Source: Naegleria gruberi (lineage: Eukaryota). Taken from it: a stretch of DNA of 64,000 bases. The notes under the pieces are model-generated. The model saw nothing but the letters and a program-made list of their open reading frames with translations, had not been told where the DNA came from and did not search any database. This document shows positions 4,660 to 50,113 of the stretch, piece by piece; within the stretch, counting starts at the first letter, position 1, and each line of letters starts with the position of its first letter. The stretch lies in the NCBI GenBank assembly GCA_000004985.1, contig GG738870.1; one strand, written 5' to 3'. The translations under genes were made by a program, and so were the position numbers.

Positions 4660-6147
4660 TTACTGTTGGTCATAGTCAGTAAATTTGTTAAATGGAAGCA
4701 TGATTTGTTGATAGAATAGCATCCAATTCTTTCTCCAATTACGTTGTATTTTTGGTTGGTAGGTATACTTTTCTGGATTGAAATGCTCAACTGAGGCCAT
4801 GTTAAAAGTAATCATGTAGAGTTGAACGCCACTCATGAAACCAACAAAGGCTAAAACCAATCCAGCAATTCCCAAATTGATGACATTCAACACAATAAAT
4901 AAAAATGTGTGGAATTGCATGATTGGATTATTGCTGTGCACGAATTGAAGCATTTGTTGAGTTTTTCCATCAGTGTACAATTCTTCAATTCTCTTTCCGT
5001 GGAGGGATGATATTCTCTTCATGGATTCATACTGAAATGCATAATCAAAGAGTTGATTCACCTCACAATAAGTCAAGTAGAACAAGCAAATTACCATAAT
5101 AAAGCATAAAGACATTTGAACTACCATACTCAAAAGGAATGCCAAAAATGTCAATTGATTCTTTTCTCCAACACAATTAGAAATCCACAGACAGTGATGG
5201 TCATACTTTGCAGCTCTATGTCCACATCTGGTACAAAATTTGGATCTTGTTGGAAATTCCACAACTTTGGTTTCTTCCTTCTTGGTAGCATTTGCTGTGA
5301 TAGCAGTGGCCGAGTCACTTGATTCATTCTCTTGCTTTTCATTTTCCAAATTCTTTTCACCACTCTTTCTATTTCTCAAAGTGGTTGTTGATGTCTGTTG
5401 TTCCTGTACCTTTTCACTATTGATTGCTTTTTGTTCTTCCTTTCTCTCAAATGTAATACTATCCTTATGTGAAATGTAACCCAAATGTTTTTCATCACCT
5501 TCCACAAAAATTCTTCCAGGATTTGACCTCTTACTCATCTCATAGGTAATATAACTCAAAATCCAACCAATATAATACAAGTAAAAACTCCAGTGAGCTC
5601 CCAATAAATTAAGTTTATCCCAATCCTGTGTGGAATAAGTAGTTTGCAACTCTAACAAGGGATATTTCATATTGGGAGCCTTTTCAGAATCGACAAATAA
5701 ACCAAAAATGTCAATCCAATAATAAGAAACAATGAAAGGAATAACTCCCATATACAAAAATCCAAACAAAATTAAATAATAAACACCAGCCTCCAATTTT
5801 CTATTATAGTGCATATTCTTTTCCTTTCTCTTTAATTTCTTCAATGCCAATTCTTCTTCCGAAAGTGTTGGTGGTGATGTTGCTACAATAGTCTTCTTTG
5901 TATTATTACAATTACACTTGTCATCATGTTGATGATGATGATCATGTAATTTACCACCACTTGATGTTCCTTCCGAGGAAGATGACGATGCTGATGATTT
6001 TGTATTCTCCTCTTCTTCTTCATCTTCATTACAACATTCATAACAAGGACACCATCTATACCGACACAGACACAAATTACATCCCAAACTACACGCCACA
6101 TCACAGGATTTATCCCACACCAATAGACACAAATCTTCGGAACACAT
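4660..6147 (-). CDS. zDHHC-type protein S-acyltransferase (palmitoyltransferase). Single exon.
   Basis: Contains CTRCGHRAAKYDHHCLWISNCVGEKN, a canonical Cys-rich DHHC zinc-finger with the DHHC tetrad. Multiple predicted TM helices flank it. ATG is at 6145-6147 on the minus strand. Confidence 0.8.
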   Translation of the reverse strand: MCSEDLCLLVWDKSCDVACSLGCNLCLCRYRWCPCYECCNEDEEEEENTKSSASSSSSEGTSSGGKLHDHHHQHDDKCNCNNTKKTIVATSPPTLSEEELALKKLKRKEKNMHYNRKLEAGVYYLILFGFLYMGVIPFIVSYYWIDIFGLFVDSEKAPNMKYPLLELQTTYSTQDWDKLNLLGAHWSFYLYYIGWILSYITYEMSKRSNPGRIFVEGDEKHLGYISHKDSITFERKEEQKAINSEKVQEQQTSTTTLRNRKSGEKNLENEKQENESSDSATAITANATKKEETKVVEFPTRSKFCTRCGHRAAKYDHHCLWISNCVGEKNQLTFLAFLLSMVVQMSLCFIMVICLFYLTYCEVNQLFDYAFQYESMKRISSLHGKRIEELYTDGKTQQMLQFVHSNNPIMQFHTFLFIVLNVINLGIAGLVLAFVGFMSGVQLYMITFNMASVEHFNPEKYTYQPKIQRNWRKNWMLFYQQIMLPFNKFTDYDQQ

Positions 6148-24084: not shown

Positions 24085-25214
24085 ATGACAGGTTTAGTTG
24101 TCAAAAAAATGTTTACATTTATTGAGCCCTTGAAAAAGATATTGTCTGTAGTAATTCGCACCGTCGATAATTTGCGAGAAGAAAACAGAATCAATGATGA
24201 AAGGGAAGGAAGAAATCAACCATCCGAAACTAGTAGCAAAATATCAAACTATTCAAAAAGTGAAATAGAAGAAACCTACAAGGTAAAAATTTGCGAAAAA
24301 TTGGGACCAGTTGTTGACATTTCAAAACTAGGACAAGGCTCAAGTGGTGAGGTATTCAAGGTTTGTTTCATTGACCATTAATTATTAGAAATCACATTTA
24401 GGTTCACACTAAAAGTGAAATTCTTGTTGTGAAAATAGTCAACTCTAGTGAAAGAGCAAAAAAAGAAGCTAAAAGACACTTCTCACATCCTCATCTGCTT
24501 GCAATATATCCAGAGAAAACCTTTATAGATGGTGAATACCACTATATTGTGAGCGAATATGTTGGAGAAACTAATCTGTGTGATTATAGACGAAACTTGG
24601 AAAATATAGAAGAGGAATTAGTATGGAAAATGATCAAGCAGATGTACAAGGCACTAACCCATATGCATTCAAAATATATCTGTCATGGAGATTTCAAACT
24701 TGCAAACATTTTTGTAAAAAGTCATCATGATTTTCGTTTAGTGTTGGGAGATTTTGGACTTTCGAATAATGAAGAATCTGTAAACCTCAACATACTTGGA
24801 GGAACTCTTGGATTCCAAGCACCTGAACTTTTCAATGGTTTGACTGAAAAGTGTGATGTGTATTCTTTCGGAAAATCAATAATTCAACTAATTATTGGAA
24901 CAAAATTTAAACATAATATTTCAAATGAACAACTGATGGAAATGGTTGCAACAAGTCAACCAAAAATATCCTCATCACTCATAGATTTAATCAAGAAAAT
25001 GATTAAAGAAAATCCTGAAGAAAGACTATCACTAGATCAAGTTGGAGTACTTATCAGAAACAAGAATAAACCAAAGCAAAAGCAAACCAAACGAGATTCT
25101 AGTACTGAATCTGAAGAAGAATTAAAATCCTTACAAAGAACCTCCACAGGTGTCCAGAAACAAAAATCTAAACCTCAGACTGGCTTTTTTAGATATTGGG
25201 GTTTTAACAAATAA
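24085..25214 (+). CDS. Small Ser/Thr protein kinase, paralog 1. Two exons, 24085..24360 and 24402..25214, with a 41-nt intron.
   Basis: Glycine loop LGQGSSGEVFKV. HGDFKLANIFV (HRD-like), GDFGLS (DFG) and QAPELF (APE). The intron GTTTGTTTC...ACATTTAG restores the frame between the two ORFs in the track. Confidence 0.7.
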
Positions 25215-25220
25215 AAAAAA

Positions 25221-26664
25221 TGACAAGTAATCAGCACATTTACACGATTGCCAAAAACTTGAATATTGAACAAGACAAAATTGAAGAAATTGTTGACTGT
25301 GTCTTCAAGGTTGGTTTCGGATTTTGGTTTCTAATATGTTTTTGCAAAGGTAACAATTCATAATTCTTCAGCAACACGGAAAGTTGAACTGTTCGTAGTT
25401 AAAGCTGTACTAAAGTCAAACCATGCTGAAGCAGAAAGTAGAAGAAACTTTAATCATAAGCACTTGATGAAAACCTTTCTAATAAGAAATTTCACTTCTG
25501 CTACACATTATTATTTATTCAGTGAATATGTTGGCGAGCAAAACTTGGTACAATACCGAAAAAATGTTAAAGAATTGCATGAGGAAAGAGTTTGGGATTT
25601 TATTAATCAAATGTCAAAAGCTCTCAATTACATGAATTCATATCCACATTTTACCATTCATAGAGATTTTTAGACAGTTGTAGGTAGATAAAATTTTGTC
25701 CCCAAATTTTTTTTGGCCAAGTCGAAACTCCAGCCATTTTTAGCTTGCGATTTTAAAAAATGTTACAAGTCGAGAATAAACCGTTACATTAGTTGGCGCC
25801 ACGAAAGAAGACGTTACACTTTCATCAAATAAACTTTAATTTCATCAAACAAAAAAAACCAAACCTCTCTTCACTTTTTGGTTGTTTTCCAACACAGGAT
25901 TTCACTATTGGTGCAACAACAACAACATCTTGAGAAATAACATTGTCCTCCAACACTTTCTTCATGTCCCGTTTTTGTTGTCCCCAAGCCAAGCCTTTTA
26001 GACTTGTAAAAAAATATTGGTCAGAGCAACAAATGTCCATTACCTACAACTGTCTAGAGATTTTAAATTGGAAAACATTATTCTAAAGAGTGGACATGAT
26101 TTTCATCTTGTTTTGGCTGATTATGGATTATGTAAGAGTGAGCTCACTAATTATGTGATCAGTGACAGGGGAACATTTGAATTTAAAGCACCAGAATTGA
26201 AAAATCAAAAAGATGAACAAGATGTAGAATTCCCTTTCAAATGTGATGTTTATTCATTTGGGAGATCAATCATTCATTTCATTTTGGGAAGTCAATTTTT
26301 AACTCTCGCTCAAAATGAAATCATCCTTAAAAACGATCCAAATAAGAAAACAGTGATGGATCACCTTATGGATCATAAACCATCTGAGGCCCTTTTCGAA
26401 TTGATTGAGAATATGATTGAGGAAGATCCAAAGTTTAGATTTGATATTAAGGAAGTAATTGCCTTTTATGAAAACAACAGACCAAGCAAATCAAAGACAT
26501 CCTTAGTCTTTCCAAAACCTGGGGAAATGAAACAGAAGATATCTAACAAAACCCCAAATCAAAGAACATCTAATTCCACTTCCTCCTCCAACACTATTTC
26601 ACGCTCTAGTCAAGGAATATCCAAACAACATAAAACCAAAGATAGGAGAGGTACAAAAAGATAA
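25221..26664 (+). pseudogene. Tandem paralog of the 24085 kinase. It is N-terminally truncated with no glycine loop, and its catalytic-loop codons are interrupted by a 386-bp transposon, so it is a probable pseudogene.
   Basis: Exon 1 is MTSNQHIYTIAKNLNIEQDKIEEIVDCVFK, which ends at the same VFK|GTTTG junction as paralog 1 but lacks GxGxxG. Exon 2 is ...YLFSEYVGEQNL...HRDF. It is followed by the MITE at 25671..26056 and then resumes in the same frame with KLENIILKSGHDFHLVLADYGL...APELKN. An in-frame TAG is created by the first 3 nt of the insert. Confidence 0.55.
25671..26056. mobile_element. hAT-like non-autonomous DNA transposon (MITE) of 386 bp. It has perfect 16-bp TIRs and a perfect 8-bp target-site duplication, and is inserted in the kinase coding sequence.
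   Basis: TIRs TAGACAGTTGTAGGTA ... TACCTACAACTGTCTA. Direct repeat GAGATTTT at 25663..25670 and 26057..26064. Host codons on both sides are in the same phase (aga gat ttt), so precise excision restores HRDFKLENIIL. Confidence 0.65.
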
Positions 26665-27277
26665 TTCTAATTCCTTATAATCATTGATGGTTGTTCAAAC
26701 TCTTGATTGTAATGGACCTGTCATATTAAATTAAGAGTAATAGAATTTTTCGTGTCTCTAATCAAGCGATCACTCAATGTTGTGCACTTTCACTCTGGTT
26801 TGAAGTTTATTTCGATTGTTCTCATAGCTGGATGAGAATGAACGAATCAAATGATTGAAAAATCAAGATTGCTTCCATTACAAAAAGTGTAATATGAAAG
26901 GTTATCAATGAAATGCTCAATTTTACAGAAGCTCAATTGGTGATTCTTTGGAAATCCCATCAAATTTTCATAGTTAGGATAAGCCGTCCGAACAACTGAT
27001 AATAATTGAATATTGCAACTTATCGTACTTTCAATATTGGATTTTTTTTCATTCCAAGATATTCCACACATACTATTGAACATGTGCACAATCCAACCAT
27101 TGAAGTTCTTTCATTCTGTTCTTGTTTAATTCCCCGCACTGATTAACAAAGACCAAATGAACAATGTCCAAAATCTGTGGCTACTCTCTTTTTGGAACAT
27201 TATTCATCTTCTTTCATACCAAAAAAATCAATATATACTAATCAAACGAAACCTTTCAAATCTTTAAAAACTGGAAC

Positions 27278-29410: not shown

Positions 29411-29588
29411 ATGTTGATATTCAAAGTATTGATTATATTGGCTAGATTCTGAATCATTTGCAGACAAAAATTCTGAAGTGAAAATTTCCAAGCTATTAAC
29501 GTGATCTTTTTCCCAGAAATTAGTTTTCCATTTAAAGAAGTCTTGGACAATATTCAATCTGGTGCATTATATATAATGAAAGCAAAAA

Positions 29589-29706
29589 GACTACAGCACC
29601 ACAGGTTCCCAAGTTGTCTCCAACCTCAGTACTGATGTGGCTCGACGATGCTTAACTTCTCAAATCGGACGGGATGAGGTGCATTCATCGTGATATGGCC
29701 GTAGCC
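29589..29706 (-). rRNA. 5S ribosomal RNA gene, a single dispersed copy, followed by an oligo-T terminator (plus-strand A5 at 29584..29588).
   Basis: Minus-strand sequence GGCTACGGCCATATCACGATGAATGCACCTCATCCCGTCCGATTTGAGAAGTTAAGCATCGTCGAGCCACATCAGTACTGAGGTTGGAGACAACTTGGGAACCTGTGGTGCTGTAGTC. It matches the eukaryotic 5S consensus (CTACGGCCATA, CCCGTCCGAT, AAGTTAAGC, AGTACT, GGGAA, GGTGCTGTAG). The 5' and 3' ends pair to form helix I. Confidence 0.85.
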
Positions 29707-31489: not shown

Positions 31490-33138
31490 TCATACAATCA
31501 TGCAATTATTTGTTGAGTCCATCAAATGGCTTTGACTTGCAGATTTAACTCTATTGTTAATGGCCATCCTTTCAAAGTACTGTAATCTTTGGACACTCAA
31601 AGGTTTAAAATTGACTTTGAGATTTGGGAATAGATGGAAAAGGTTTGGATTAACTGAGAGAACATTTTCTAATATTTTCTCATCAAGATACACATCTTTC
31701 AATAATGCACATTCTACCAGATTTGGATCAACCTTGAAAATTGATTGAAGATGTTCACGAGAGGATAGCAGATTAGTTAATTGGCCAATATTAAATTCAC
31801 TAAATATATTTGGATTCGCTTTAAAACATTTGACAAGCAAGTCATTGGATAATCCATGTAAAAAAATAAGAATTTTAGGATTTTTCAATATAAGTTCAAA
31901 TATTAATTCCTCATCCAGAACTACTTCCTCAAGAAATTGTCTACTAAATGAAAATAACAAAATTGAATCTTAATTGCCTTACGAAACAGATTCTTATGAT
32001 TATGCAAGTAATGCGGAATGTCAAAAGGTCTTTTTTTCTCCAAAACATCACTTACATATTTTTTCAATAAATGATTGGTCAATTCATCATCATTAGGACG
32101 ATTACTAATAATATGGTCAATAATCCTATTAGAACAGTCATTTTCGTATAGCCAATTAATTAATTCTTTGTTCTGTCCAATAGTTTCTGGAATATTCACA
32201 ACATTTTGGCAATCAGTAGACATTGCTAATTTGAATGTTTCAACGTCCTCTCTTACAATCTCATTAAAGTAATCATAATTTTTACCTGAAAATCTTATGA
32301 ATTTTCTTGCCATTTGAACATCTTCGACATATCTCAGCATTTCAATACGATACTTATACAATTTTCCATTAATCATTATTGTATCATATTCCTTTATCTC
32401 AAATTCAATTTCGTCTTTCAGCCATTTGTAAAACCTCAACATAGATAGTGGGTATCTCTTCACAATTTCTTTCATCATTTCTATAACACTCAGGGTATTT
32501 TTCAAACTTTTGAAAGTGTTACTTTTTGAAAGACATTTCCTCAATATATCAACATCATCTAATAGAGTTTCTCCAATGAATATAATGTTTCCATAAGTTT
32601 TACCCAAAGATTTCAGTACCATCCCCTTATCATTTCGAATATCTGTCTTACAAAACTGAAGAGATTTGGGTTTTGATTCAAGAGCTGATGAAATTATATC
32701 TAAATCAATACATTCCACTTTCTTTAAAGCATCTTTTGAATATTTCACAACATTTAAGGCAAAACTCTTCTTTTTCCACAAGCCACAATGGAAGAGGAGC
32801 ATCTCTTTCTTTTTCCTAATGGCCTGAAGCATAAAATCTTCATCTTCCATGAAAGAGTGTATAAATGGAAAATGGTAATCTTTTACCAGATATTCTAATA
32901 AAAATTGTTTTTTAATTTCTTTTGTCGGGATGGAATTGTATAATTCAAAAACAAATTTTCTTTTCATCATCTTTGGTCCATGAATGGCCACTAAATATTT
33001 CCAATATTCATTCAATTTTTGTAAACATTCTTCTCTTGTCTTGTTCATGGTATGATTTAAATTGATAAAGTTGGTTGACAACTTGTTGATCGGTGTGGAA
33101 TCTAAAACAATAACCACTTGTCCATAGTGTGGTGACAT
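31490..33138 (-). CDS. Hypothetical alpha-helical protein. Two overlapping ORFs, 31921..33138 and 31490..31960, are probably joined by a short intron or frameshift.
   Basis: Long ORFs with coding-like composition and K/E/L-rich repeats. No catalytic motif recognised. Confidence 0.35.
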
Positions 33139-38521: not shown

Positions 38522-39346
38522 ATTAGTTTTGTATTATTCAGAAGAATTTAAATTTTCTCTTCACCGAGAATAATAATCGGTGATTTTAGATTATTCCGTG
38601 TCCTTTTATCAATAAACAAGGGTTTGTTTTATTTAAAAACCTGATGTGATGATATTAATTGAAGAGAATAATGAAGCAAAATTGAAAATATTAACAAAAG
38701 GAGAGAATCATCACAGTGATGATGATGACAATCTAAATATACAATCAATGGAAAACAAGACTGCCACTCCTCAACAACATAAGATAACACACCCCATCGG
38801 CTTCAACCACACAAAAACATCAAGTCTATCAAAATAGGGTGCTAAAAAACAAAAAAAATGATTGGCAGAAACAAGTAAGTAACTGATGCAAGTTACAGAT
38901 TTGGCCGACTCACACTCAAATAACATCATTATCTAACCGGTTGTCTATTTGCATATCCATTCATTACTCAATGTTTTAAATGTTCTCTCATCATTTGATG
39001 AAGACACCTCATCACTTCTCTCGGAAAGCATAATCTAAAAAAAAATCAGTCAATCCTCTCTTCTGTAAGCCACCGTTCACAACCAGCTTTATCGGCAGCA
39101 ACACATTTGATTGATCAACAACAATTGGAAAGAAAAACCTCTACAACAACATCACTCTCTTGTAAAAATTATCACACCAATATTAGTGGTTCAATTCCTT
39201 CTAATTGTAATTTACCAAGCCAACCTCGTAGTAGAAATACAAACAAAACACTAAAAGTAAGAGGAGATTCATCACTCATCACAACTAGTACTAAACAACA
39301 AAGAAATATATCAACATTTGTTTTTGACGAAGACGACGACGAAGAA

Positions 39347-41329
39347 ATGATTCAAAATAATTTGGTTTTTGATTTAACTCCTGAACAAATTGAAAAGGAA
39401 ACTGCTGCCTTAATTGAAAAATCAAGAGCTGTTCATGATTCTGTTGCAAAGCTTGCAGAATCTGAAAGAACTTTCCAATCAGTCGTTTTACCAATTGCTC
39501 AAGATGAAGCCTACTTCTCTGTACATGAAAATAATGTCACATTCCCTTCATATGTTAGTCCAGATAAAGCAGTCAGAGATGCTGCTTCTGCTGCTGAAGA
39601 AAAAATTTCAGAATTCACCATTGATATTTTGATGCGTGAGGATGTGTATAGAGCTGTTAAATATGTTTCTGATAAGATGCAATCTGAATTGGAAAAGTAT
39701 GACGAAGAAGATAAGAGACTTGTGAAGAGAATTCTCAGGGATTACGAAAGAAATGGATTGGGATTACCAGAAGATAAGAGAGCAGTTGTAAAGGATTTGA
39801 AGAATCAACTTTCCAAGTTGTGCATTCAATTCACCAAGAATGTTTCTGAAGATAAGACTGTCCTCCATTTCACAAAGGAAGAATTGGATGGAGTTCCAGA
39901 AGATGTCATTAATGACTTTAAGGTCTCTGAAGAAGATCCAAATAAGAGGGTTGTCTCAATGAAATATCCAGAAGTAATGCCAGTCATGAAATACTGTAAA
40001 GTTGAAGAAACAAGACGTAGATTGGATGTTGCTCGTTCTTCACAATGCCAAGAAGCTAACGTTCCATTGTTCGAACAAGCTGTCAAGATTAGACAAAAGA
40101 TTGCAGAAATTATGGGTTTCAAGACTCACTCTCACTATGTTTTGGATGTCAACATGGCTACTCCAGATGAAGTTTTAACCTTCTTGTACAATCTCAGAGA
40201 TAGACTTTTGGATGGTGGTAAACAAGAACTTGAAGTACTCAAACAATTGAAAGGATCTGAAGTTTTCTCATGGGATTACCTCTACTTGTTGACCAAGCTC
40301 AAGGAAGAACAATACAGTGTCGATGATAACTTGATTAAGGAATATTTCCCATTGGATTATACTCTTGATGGTTTACTGAGTATTGCTCAAGAAACTTTCT
40401 CTCTCAAGTTTGAAGAAGTTAAGGATGCTAAGGTCTGGTTTGAAGGTGTTAAATTATACAATGTTTTTGACAAGGAAACTGATGATCATTTGGGTCAATT
40501 CTATTTGGACTTTTTCGCTAGAGATGGCAAGTATAGCCACTTTGCTGCCTTCCCACTTTCTCCTCACTACTTTGATGCTGAAGGAAAGGAACAATTCCCA
40601 GTCACTGCCATGGTTTGTAACTTTACCAAACCATCAGCTGAAACTGGTGTCTCCCTCTTGAAGCATGATGAAGTCATCACATTACTCCATGAATTCGGTC
40701 ACTTGACTCACGGATTCTTGTCTAAGACTAAGTATGCTAGATTCAGTGGTACTCGTGTAGAAAGAGACTTTGTTGAAATGCCTTCTCAATTCATGGAAGG
40801 TTATGGATGGGAGACTCAAGGTTTGAAGAGATTGTCATCTCACTATAAGACTGGAGAAAAACTTCCAGATGATCTCATCAAGAAGATGATTGATGCCAAG
40901 AATGTTGGTGTTTCACTTTTCAACTTGCGTCAATTGTTCTTTGGTATCTTTGATATGACTTGCCATACTTTTACTTCTGCTGAAGAAGCTGAAAAGCTTG
41001 ACAGTGGTGCTTTGTGGAGAAAGCTTAGAAGAGAGGTTACCTTATTGGAAAATCCAGAAGGTACTAACGGAGTTGCTTCATTTGGGCATCTCATGGGTGG
41101 CTACGATTCTGGATATTATGGATATTTGTACTCTGAAGTTTTCTCTACTGACATGTTTGGAGAATTCAAGAAGCAAGGTATCTTCAATCCAGAAATTGGT
41201 AAGAAGTACAGAAAGCTCATTTTACAAAGAGGAGGATCTAAGGATGGTGGTGTCATGTTGAGAGAATTTTTGGGTAGAGAACCATCTCAAGATGCCTTCT
41301 TGGAAGATATTGGTTTGCTTAAGAAATAA
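39347..41329 (+). CDS. Thimet oligopeptidase / neurolysin / saccharolysin family metallopeptidase (M3A). Single exon.
   Basis: HEXXH zinc site LLHEFGHLTHGF. Conserved M3 C-terminal region GHLMGGYDSGYYGYLYSEVFSTDMF...GGSKDGGVMLREFLGREPSQDAFL. The first in-frame ATG at 39347 gives MIQNNLVFDLTPEQIEKETAALIEK, matching THOP1 N-termini. The ORF track starts further upstream at a TTG. Confidence 0.85.
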   Translation: MIQNNLVFDLTPEQIEKETAALIEKSRAVHDSVAKLAESERTFQSVVLPIAQDEAYFSVHENNVTFPSYVSPDKAVRDAASAAEEKISEFTIDILMREDVYRAVKYVSDKMQSELEKYDEEDKRLVKRILRDYERNGLGLPEDKRAVVKDLKNQLSKLCIQFTKNVSEDKTVLHFTKEELDGVPEDVINDFKVSEEDPNKRVVSMKYPEVMPVMKYCKVEETRRRLDVARSSQCQEANVPLFEQAVKIRQKIAEIMGFKTHSHYVLDVNMATPDEVLTFLYNLRDRLLDGGKQELEVLKQLKGSEVFSWDYLYLLTKLKEEQYSVDDNLIKEYFPLDYTLDGLLSIAQETFSLKFEEVKDAKVWFEGVKLYNVFDKETDDHLGQFYLDFFARDGKYSHFAAFPLSPHYFDAEGKEQFPVTAMVCNFTKPSAETGVSLLKHDEVITLLHEFGHLTHGFLSKTKYARFSGTRVERDFVEMPSQFMEGYGWETQGLKRLSSHYKTGEKLPDDLIKKMIDAKNVGVSLFNLRQLFFGIFDMTCHTFTSAEEAEKLDSGALWRKLRREVTLLENPEGTNGVASFGHLMGGYDSGYYGYLYSEVFSTDMFGEFKKQGIFNPEIGKKYRKLILQRGGSKDGGVMLREFLGREPSQDAFLEDIGLLKK

Positions 41330-41350
41330 ATCATGCTTGTATTGATGTTC

Positions 41351-41425
41351 TATTGTAAGTTTCCAGAAAGCGTTTACGTGAAAAGTTTGATGCGAACTTT
41401 TGGCGCTTTCTGGAAACTTACAATA
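41351..41425. repeat. Near-perfect palindrome of 75 nt (22-bp arms plus a 7-bp inner stem) immediately 3' of the oligopeptidase stop codon. Either a hairpin/terminator-like element or a transposon remnant.
   Basis: Left arm TATTGTAAGTTTCCAGAAAGCG (41351..41372) is an exact reverse complement of right arm CGCTTTCTGGAAACTTACAATA (41404..41425). Inner pair AAAAGTT/AACTTTT. Confidence 0.5.
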
Positions 41426-50032: not shown

Positions 50033-50113
50033 GCAGGGGTTCCCGAGTGGTCAAAGGGGGTAGACTCAAGTTCTACTGCGCAAGCTTCGTGGGTTCAAAT
50101 CCCACCTTCTGCA
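50033..50113 (+). tRNA. tRNA-Leu (anticodon CAA), a class II tRNA with a long variable arm.
   Basis: GCAGGGG acceptor stem pairs with CTTCTGC. D-arm TTCCCGAGTGGTCAAAGGG. Anticodon stem GTAGA/TCTAC with loop CTCAAGT. T-arm GTGGGTTCAAATCCCAC. T-rich tract downstream. Confidence 0.85.

What the first reader, a model, noticed from the sequence alone, without database searches (positions are those of the whole stretch)
25221..26664. Recent hAT-like MITE insertion in the catalytic-loop codons of a tandemly duplicated kinase gene
A 386-bp element (25671..26056) with perfect 16-bp TIRs (TAGACAGTTGTAGGTA) and a perfect 8-bp TSD (GAGATTTT) sits exactly between HRDF and KLENIIL of kinase paralog 2. The host codons on both sides are in the same phase, so the insertion is clean and young. 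The first 3 nt of the element form an in-frame TAG. There is no GT donor upstream of that TAG that would let the element be spliced out as an intron. This paralog also lacks the glycine loop that its neighbour (24085..25214) retains. Together this looks like a duplicate gene caught in the act of pseudogenisation by a transposon.
Basis: seen in the sequence. Interest (0 to 1): 0.65.

Follow-up and report, generated by a model that had tools for sequence, protein, structure and literature searches.

The report
Young transposon insertion disrupting Naegleria kinase
A 386-bp non-coding cut-and-paste transposon has recently landed inside a protein-kinase gene of the amoeba Naegleria gruberi and broken it, and a near-identical wild strain still carries the intact, unoccupied site; this is an ordinary kind of event, though a rare sign of recent transposon activity in a transposon-poor genome.

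Summary
At 25671..26056 lies a 386-bp element with perfect 16-bp terminal inverted repeats, flanked by a perfect 8-bp duplication (GAGATTTT). It splits the HRDF|KLENIIL catalytic-loop codons of a kinase gene and puts a TAG in frame.

The window is Naegleria gruberi reference DNA: one ORF is 100% identical to XP_002676727.1.

The decisive new evidence is a 1226-bp genomic contig from an ENA metagenome. It is about 99.6% identical to window 25082..26700. It keeps the gene's 40-nt intron and the upstream gene's 3' end, but lacks the element and has a single GAGATTTT. That is an exact empty site, so the insertion is real, derived and recent. It is not an intron, since no splice-site pair can remove it.

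What I could not establish:
- **Copy number and autonomous partner:** no second copy or transposase was found in the data I could search, and the rest of the N. gruberi genome was not searchable here.
- **Superfamily:** hAT is plausible from the 8-bp duplication, the 16-bp repeats and the TAG terminus. It is unproven, because the fifth terminal base and the target site do not fit hAT consensus.
- **"MITE":** this label is untested.

The two kinase paralogs are only 40% identical, so the duplication is old. This is an ordinary finding and a new member of a known kind.

The parts
25671..26056 (.). 386-bp non-autonomous TIR element (35.5% GC, no convincing coding capacity)
   Evidence: It is absent from the orthologous contig L001.
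25671..25686 (+). left terminal inverted repeat TAGACAGTTGTAGGTA; its first three bases form the in-frame TAG stop
   Evidence: exact match; frame
26041..26056 (-). right terminal inverted repeat (perfect reverse complement of the left one)
25663..25670 (.). left copy of the 8-bp target-site duplication GAGATTTT
   Evidence: (D12)
26057..26064 (.). right copy of the 8-bp target-site duplication GAGATTTT; the empty-site contig has only one copy
25220..26664 (+). kinase paralog 2 (336 aa once the element is removed), interrupted between Phe of HRDF and Lys of KLEN. It has a degenerate Gly loop, HRD, DYG and APE present.
   Evidence: P0001 is 100% identical across the junction.
25310..25349 (+). 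40-nt phase-0 GT-AG intron of kinase 2, retained in L001, which shows that L001 is genomic DNA
24085..25214 (+). kinase paralog 1 (362 aa; 41-nt intron 24361-24401 at the homologous position; GQGSSG, HGD, DFG, APE). It is 40% identical to paralog 2. Its stop lies 5 nt before the kinase-2 ATG.
25825..26040 (-). 71-aa ORF starting directly after the right TIR; probably fortuitous
   Evidence: no homologue; no Pfam family

Best explanation
The 386-bp sequence is an internally non-coding, non-autonomous class II (cut-and-paste, TIR) DNA transposon of Naegleria gruberi.

Inferred mechanism: a transposase encoded elsewhere in the genome bound its 16-bp terminal inverted repeats and integrated it at a staggered 8-bp cut at GAGATTTT inside the catalytic-loop codons (HRDF|KLEN) of a protein-kinase gene. 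Gap repair then produced the 8-bp duplication.

Shown: the insertion places a TAG in frame immediately after Phe of HRDF and shifts the downstream frame by +1. This allele can therefore only encode a product truncated before the catalytic Lys/Asn, the DYG (DFG-equivalent) motif and APE, so it is a null allele. The insertion happened after the reference lineage split from a ~99.6%-identical wild lineage that still has the unoccupied site, so it is evolutionarily recent.

Superfamily: hAT is the most likely (about 0.55) on TSD length, TIR length and the TAG terminus, but it is unproven.
For: **Structure (shown).** Perfect 16-bp TIRs and a perfect 8-bp TSD. Structures of this kind are expected 0.03 times per random window even with only 10-bp TIRs.

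**Empty site (shown).** Searching with the kinase after removing the element found P0001. It is 100% identical across HRDFKLENIIL and sits on ENA contig L001.
- L001 retains the 40-nt intron, the intergenic A-run and the last 131 nt of kinase 1, so it is genomic DNA.
- The window minus the element and one TSD copy equals L001, apart from 4 SNPs and one A-run indel.
- A second contig of the same sample is 98.95% identical to window 38595-41352, so the sample contains a close N. gruberi relative.

**Organism (shown).** Window ORF 39107-41329 is 100% identical to N. gruberi XP_002676727.1 / NAEGRDRAFT_36811.

**Consequence (shown).** The TAG is in frame, the downstream frame shifts by +1, and no GT/GC-AG pair preserves the catalytic loop.

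**Non-autonomy (shown as far as tested).** The longest ORF is 71 aa with no homologue in 5.8 billion or 1.84 billion proteins and no Pfam family.

**hAT features.** TIRs of 10-25 bp and an 8-bp TSD define hAT elements (PMC3942097).
Against: - No second copy and no transposase partner was found. There was none in the 64-kb window and none among its long ORFs. The JGI metagenome scan gave six single-TIR hits with no extended similarity, and IMG/VR gave nine single hits, judged chance from the lone TIR match, not checked further. The N. gruberi genome outside the window could not be searched, so multi-copy mobility is inferred, not shown.
- For hAT specifically, the terminus is TAGAC rather than YARNG (fifth base C, not G). 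The target GAGATTTT fits neither nTnnnnAn (Ac group) nor nnnTAnnn (Buster group); these consensus forms are from my knowledge of Arensburger et al. 2011.
- A RepeatModeler survey of N. lovaniensis names only EnSpm and piggyBac among DNA elements (PMC6125883).
- The nature of the ENA sample (PRJEB11402) could not be traced.
Confidence: 0.92

Rival explanations
1. The event is the same (a recent non-autonomous TIR transposon insertion), but the element belongs to another superfamily that can make 8-bp duplications, such as Mutator-like, P, Merlin, Zisupton/KDZ or Novosib, or to an undescribed one. It is not hAT.
For: The fifth terminal base and the target sequence do not fit hAT consensus (consensus from established knowledge). 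No hAT partner or hAT domain was seen in the window. hAT is not among the named DNA families in the N. lovaniensis repeat survey.
Against: hAT is by far the most widespread superfamily with a strict 8-bp TSD and short TIRs of 10-25 bp. The TAG start is typical of hAT. Mutator usually gives 9-10 bp, Merlin termini start with GG, and P termini start with CATG (my knowledge, not tested here).
Confidence: 0.35
2. The ancestral state was occupied, and the metagenome strain lost the element by precise excision. On this reading the reference allele is old rather than newly hit.
For: Only two alleles were compared, so polarity rests on mechanism rather than on an outgroup.
Against: Cut-and-paste excision normally leaves both TSD copies or a footprint, whereas L001 has exactly one GAGATTTT and a perfect open frame. 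TIRs and TSD carry no mutation at all (16/16 and 8/8), while the flanks differ by about 0.4% between the strains. An old null allele would be expected to have accumulated further damage, yet both halves of the ORF are intact.
Confidence: 0.05
3. The element behaves as an intron (an introner-like transposon) and is removed from the mRNA, so the gene is still functional.
For: The element ends in ...CTAG, so an AG acceptor lies at its 3' edge. A GT at 25684 paired with that AG would keep the reading frame (read from the sequence).
Against: That splice would leave the in-frame TAG in the message. None of the 11 possible registers of the 394-nt deletion has GT-AG, GC-AG or AT-AC ends (read from the sequence). 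All 82 frame-preserving GT/GC-AG pairs delete the HRD catalytic loop or more, and use exon-internal cryptic donors. The known introns here are 40-41 nt. No literature links Naegleria to introners in a relevant way.
Confidence: 0.02
4. It is an assembly or cloning artefact in the reference sequence.
For: None specific. Only one assembly was seen.
Against: An artefact would not create a perfect 8-bp target duplication bounded by perfect 16-bp inverted repeats. The composition matches the host (35.5% against about 34% GC).
Confidence: 0.01

Closest known systems
Non-autonomous hAT elements (Ds-like deletion derivatives; hAT MITEs such as Drosophila Mar and BuT2-derived MITEs)
   Same: 8-bp target-site duplication. 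Short TIRs (16 bp, within the 10-25 bp range). Terminus begins with TAG. A few hundred bp long with no transposase. Insertion into an exon gives a null allele. Short repeated subterminal motifs are present (TTGTCCCCAA x2, CAAGTC x3, GTTACA x3).
   Different: The fifth terminal base is C rather than the conserved G of YARNG. The target GAGATTTT fits neither the Ac-type nor the Buster-type target consensus. No hAT transposase partner was identified, and the copy number is unknown.
Classical MITEs (Tourist/Stowaway type)
   Same: Small, non-coding, with TIRs and a TSD, and inserted in or near a gene.
   Different: Those make 2-3-bp TA/TAA duplications, are usually highly repeated and often fold into long hairpins. 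This element makes an 8-bp duplication. Only the 16-bp ends pair (fold z-score -1.6), and only one copy was seen.
Introner elements (Micromonas, Aureococcus and other protists)
   Same: A short DNA transposon with TIRs and a TSD sitting inside coding sequence of a protist gene.
   Different: Introners supply or co-opt GT...AG so that they are spliced out. This element has no usable splice-site pair and leaves an in-frame stop.

Membership tests
Class II TIR (cut-and-paste) DNA transposon | Terminal inverted repeats at both ends | tested here: met
   Perfect 16-bp TIRs at 25671-25686 and 26041-26056
Class II TIR (cut-and-paste) DNA transposon | Target-site duplication of fixed length directly flanking the TIRs | tested here: met
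   Perfect 8-bp GAGATTTT on both sides. 0.03 such structures are expected per random window.
Class II TIR (cut-and-paste) DNA transposon | Presence/absence polymorphism with an empty site holding one copy of the target | tested here: met
   Genomic contig L001 is about 99.6% identical, lacks the element and has a single GAGATTTT
Class II TIR (cut-and-paste) DNA transposon | Other copies at other loci with different TSDs, and an autonomous copy encoding a transposase | not testable with these tools
   No copy in the window, in JGI metagenomes or in IMG/VR. No collection holding the N. gruberi genome could be searched at DNA level.
hAT superfamily | 8-bp target-site duplication | tested here: met
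   definition in PMC3942097
hAT superfamily | Short TIRs of 10-25 bp | tested here: met
   16 bp; definition in PMC3942097
hAT superfamily | Terminal motif 5'-YARNG | tested here: inconclusive
   The terminus is TAGAC, so 4 of 5 positions fit and the fifth is C rather than G. The motif is from my knowledge of the family.
hAT superfamily | Target preference nTnnnnAn (Ac group) or nnnTAnnn (Buster group) | tested here: not met
   GAGATTTT / AAAATCTC fits neither. This is a statistical preference, and one site cannot exclude membership.
hAT superfamily | Mobilised by a hAT transposase (RNase-H-like DDE core with insertion domain, C-terminal hAT dimerisation domain) | not testable with these tools
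   No transposase-like ORF in the window (Pfam scans). The element's 71-aa ORF has no homologue.
MITE | Short (less than about 800 bp) with no coding capacity | tested here: met
   386 bp; the longest ORF is 71 aa without homologues or Pfam family
MITE | Member of a homogeneous multi-copy family | not testable with these tools
Spliceosomal intron / introner | GT-AG (or GC-AG, AT-AC) boundaries whose removal restores the ORF | tested here: not met
   No register of the 394-nt deletion has canonical ends (read from the sequence). No frame-preserving pair keeps the catalytic loop.

The most novel reading that the evidence does not exclude
The element belongs to a DNA-transposon family that is active now, or was very recently, in the laboratory reference strain of N. 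gruberi, a genome reported to be only about 0.3% transposable elements. It would be mobilised by a still-functional transposase that may not be a canonical hAT. Such a system would be an endogenous insertional mutagen and a possible gene-delivery vehicle for an organism that lacks genetic tools.
Probability: 0.15. Interest if true: 0.45.

Novelty: new member of a known kind. Interest (0 to 1): 0.25.

Why it matters
On its own this is a routine event: a small DNA transposon knocking out one allele of one member of a large kinase family.

Its modest value is threefold:
1. It gives sequence-level proof (occupied and exact empty site) that cut-and-paste transposition has occurred very recently in the N. 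gruberi lineage. Naegleria genomes are reported as extremely TE-poor (about 0.28% in N. gruberi; DNA elements 0.68% in N. lovaniensis).
2. The perfect ends define the cis-sequences of a probably still-mobilisable element. These could lead to its transposase and perhaps to a genetic tool for Naegleria.
3. It flags a locus where the reference genome carries a null allele that should not be taken as the species' gene content.

Tried and rejected
- **Ciliate-type internal eliminated sequence or alternative genetic code.** I considered this because of the AT-richness and the in-frame TAG. I rejected it because the long exons contain no in-frame TAA/TAG/TGA, both genes end in TAA, and the organism is N. 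gruberi.
- **Splicing.** I enumerated all GT/GC-AG pairs, and none preserves the catalytic loop.
- **Other copies.** The window at up to 3 mismatches and by blastn gave none. A JGI metagenome scan with TIR plus 4 degenerate bases gave 6 loci. All are single chance matches of 17-22 nt in 28-47% GC contigs. The IMG/VR scan gave 9 single hits, judged chance from the lone TIR match, not checked further.
- **The element's 71-aa ORF.** No word-sharing candidate, no HMMER hit among 1.84 billion representatives, no Pfam family.
- **Literature.** There is nothing on PRJEB11402 or ERR1078381, nothing on the TIR sequence, and the N. gruberi genome paper is not held. Searches for Naegleria MITE or hAT papers gave only general TE-content figures.
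- **Hairpin-type MITE.** The fold is no better than shuffles (z = -1.6).

Full report
**Observation.**
- TAGACAGTTGTAGGTA lies at 25671-25686, and its perfect reverse complement lies at 26041-26056. These are the only two occurrences in the window, even allowing three mismatches.
- GAGATTTT directly flanks both ends, at 25663-25670 and 26057-26064.
- The exact direct repeat is 10 bp (TAGAGATTTT), because the element ends in TA. Only the 8-bp parse gives symmetric termini.
- A scan for a perfect inverted repeat of at least 10 bp with a perfect 8-bp flanking duplication, 50-3000 bp apart, finds this one structure in the window. It finds 0.03 per first-order-Markov random window.
- The structure is therefore real and not due to chance.

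**Host gene.** Translation shows two tandem protein-kinase genes on the + strand.
- Kinase 1 runs 24085-25214 and has a 41-nt intron at 24361-24401.
It has a 40-nt intron at 25310-25349 and ends at 26664.
- The upstream frame reads CAT AGA GAT TTT TAG, so the element's first three bases are an in-frame stop.
- The element plus one duplication copy is 394 nt, which shifts the frame by +1. Removing them gives an uninterrupted 336-aa protein reading ...HFTIHRDFKLENIILK....
- The two kinases are only 40% identical, so the tandem duplication is old.
- Both have a phase-0 intron after the homologous ...VFK.
- Kinase 1 matches Pfam Pkinase from profile position 4 and has GQGSSG.
- Kinase 2 matches only from profile position 43 and has IEEIVD where the glycine loop should be. 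It retains the beta-3 Lys, HRD, the catalytic Asn, DYG and APE.

**Organism.**
- The window is 31-38% GC in 2-kb windows and densely packed with long ORFs. These encode RasGEFs, an F-box/Roc protein, DHHC, DUF4116 and an M3 peptidase.
- The M3 peptidase ORF (39107-41329) is 100% identical to Naegleria gruberi XP_002676727.1 / NAEGRDRAFT_36811, which lies on a 418-kb NCBI contig.
- N. fowleri is 80% identical and Willaertia 67%.
- The window is therefore N. gruberi reference nuclear DNA with the standard genetic code.

**The decisive result: an empty site.**
- Searching the protein database with kinase 2 after removing the element returned one protein, P0001. It is 267 aa and 100% identical right across the HRDF/KLENIIL junction.
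- It is encoded on a 1226-bp contig (L001) of an ENA metagenome assembly, ERZ929261 / ERR1078381 / PRJEB11402.
- L001 contains the last 131 nt of kinase 1, the A-run spacer, kinase-2 exon 1 and the unspliced 40-nt intron. It also holds the rest of kinase 2 and 36 nt of 3' flank. It is therefore genomic DNA, not mRNA.
- The window sequence 25082-26700, with 25671-26064 deleted, equals L001 apart from four SNPs and one A-run length difference.
- The SNPs are 25190 T/C, 25437 A/G, 26355 G/A and 26487 C/T.
- L001 has a single GAGATTTT.
- Within kinase 2, one of the three SNPs is non-synonymous (Ser/Gly) and two are synonymous.
- A second contig of the same sample is 98.95% identical to window 38595-41352. 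The sample therefore contains a close wild relative of the reference strain.

An unoccupied target carrying exactly one copy of the duplicated 8-mer is the classical proof of a transposition event. It also sets the polarity. Cut-and-paste excision normally leaves a footprint, so the empty state is ancestral and the reference allele is derived.
- It keeps the bona fide intron.
- None of the eleven possible registers of the 394-nt deletion has GT-AG, GC-AG or AT-AC ends (read from the sequence).

**Not an intron.** I enumerated every GT or GC donor in 25400-25760 paired with every AG in 25950-26200 that leaves an open frame.
- All 82 pairs use exon-internal donors at or upstream of 25620.
- All of them delete the HRD catalytic loop or more.
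- The only element-internal donor that keeps the frame is GT at 25684, paired with the AG at the element's end. It retains the TAG (read from the sequence).
- This allele therefore cannot give a functional kinase.

**What the element is.**
- It is 386 bp and 35.5% GC, which is host-like.
- Beyond the 16-bp ends the two halves are not complementary. The single-strand fold is no better than shuffles (z = -1.6).
- A few short motifs recur near the ends: TTGTCCCCAA twice, CAAGTC three times and GTTACA three times. This is reminiscent of subterminal transposase-binding repeats, though that is only a resemblance.
- The longest ORF is 71 aa on the minus strand and starts right after the right TIR. 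It has no homologue in the 5.8-billion-protein index or in a full HMMER scan of 1.84 billion representatives, and no Pfam family.
- No transposase-like ORF is present anywhere in the window.
- The element is therefore non-autonomous.

**Superfamily.**
- An 8-bp TSD and TIRs of 10-25 bp are the structural definition of hAT elements (PMC3942097).
- The TAG start is typical of hAT.
- Against that, the fifth base (C) departs from YARNG. The target GAGATTTT fits neither the Ac-type (nTnnnnAn) nor the Buster-type (nnnTAnnn) preference. These consensus forms are from my own knowledge of the family.
- Other superfamilies can also give 8-bp duplications, including Mutator-like, P, Merlin, Zisupton and Novosib.
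- I rate hAT at about 0.55.

**Copy number.**
- I found no other copy in the window.
- JGI metagenomes gave six single-TIR hits with no extended similarity.
- IMG/VR gave nine single hits, judged chance from the lone TIR match, not checked further.
- None of the DNA collections available holds the N. gruberi genome.
- Family size and the autonomous partner therefore remain untested. 'MITE', which implies a multi-copy family, is not established.

**Context.**
- Naegleria genomes are reported as very poor in transposable elements. N. gruberi is about 0.28% (bioRxiv 10.64898/2026.06.24.734286).
- In N. lovaniensis, DNA elements make up 0.68%, with only EnSpm and piggyBac named (PMC6125883).
- Neither of those families makes 8-bp duplications, so this element is outside the named ones.
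- The kinase search returned no N. gruberi RefSeq protein, although that proteome is in the database. I infer that the interrupted gene has no model in the reference annotation.

**Verdict.**
- The main interpretation is supported and now rests on an exact empty site. It is that a young transposon insertion truncates a kinase allele and cannot be spliced out.
- The hAT and MITE labels remain plausible but unproven.
- The duplication itself is old.
- The event is of a well-known kind. Its interest lies mainly in documenting recent DNA transposition in a TE-poor protist and in pointing to a possibly active transposase.

Noticed in passing
window 25212-25222: Kinase 1's TAA stop is separated from kinase 2's ATG by only 5 nt (AAAAA). 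The wild-strain contig L001 has one more A, so the two ORFs are not a fixed read-through fusion. Both genes have a phase-0 intron after the homologous ...VFK. Exon 1 of kinase 1, which carries the Gly loop, could therefore in principle be spliced to exon 2 of kinase 2. This is speculative.
   Followed up: partly
window 29588-29706 (-): A complete 5S rRNA gene (Rfam RF00001, 105 bits) lies alone between protein-coding ORFs, about 3 kb downstream of the kinases.
   Followed up: no
window 50033-50113 (+): A tRNA-Leu(CAA) gene was found by both ARAGORN and Rfam. It lies just upstream of a RasGEF ORF.
   Followed up: no
window 19215-19601: A 45-nt imperfect inverted repeat (82% complementary) bounds a stretch of about 387 bp in an intergenic region. 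Its core is TACTGTAAAACCCC.GCCGTAAGACT. This may be an older MITE-like element of a different family. No clear TSD was seen.
   Followed up: partly
window 41351-41425; L017 2757-2798: A perfect 22-nt inverted repeat with a 31-nt spacer lies 22 nt after the M3 peptidase stop. The wild-strain contig L017 has only the second arm and a shorter, different sequence in place of the first. This is a structural polymorphism at a palindrome.
   Followed up: partly
window 24685-24693: Kinase 1 has HGD instead of the canonical HRD in its catalytic loop, while the interrupted kinase 2 has HRD but DYG instead of DFG.
   Followed up: no
window 5623-6109: This is the only other TIR+TSD structure in the window (8-bp TIR, 8-bp TSD). 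It lies inside the DHHC ORF and is at the level expected by chance (0.3 per random window).
   Followed up: no
window 31921-33138 (-): An ORF with a DUF4116 match (Pfam PF13475), which was an early hint of Naegleria origin.
   Followed up: no
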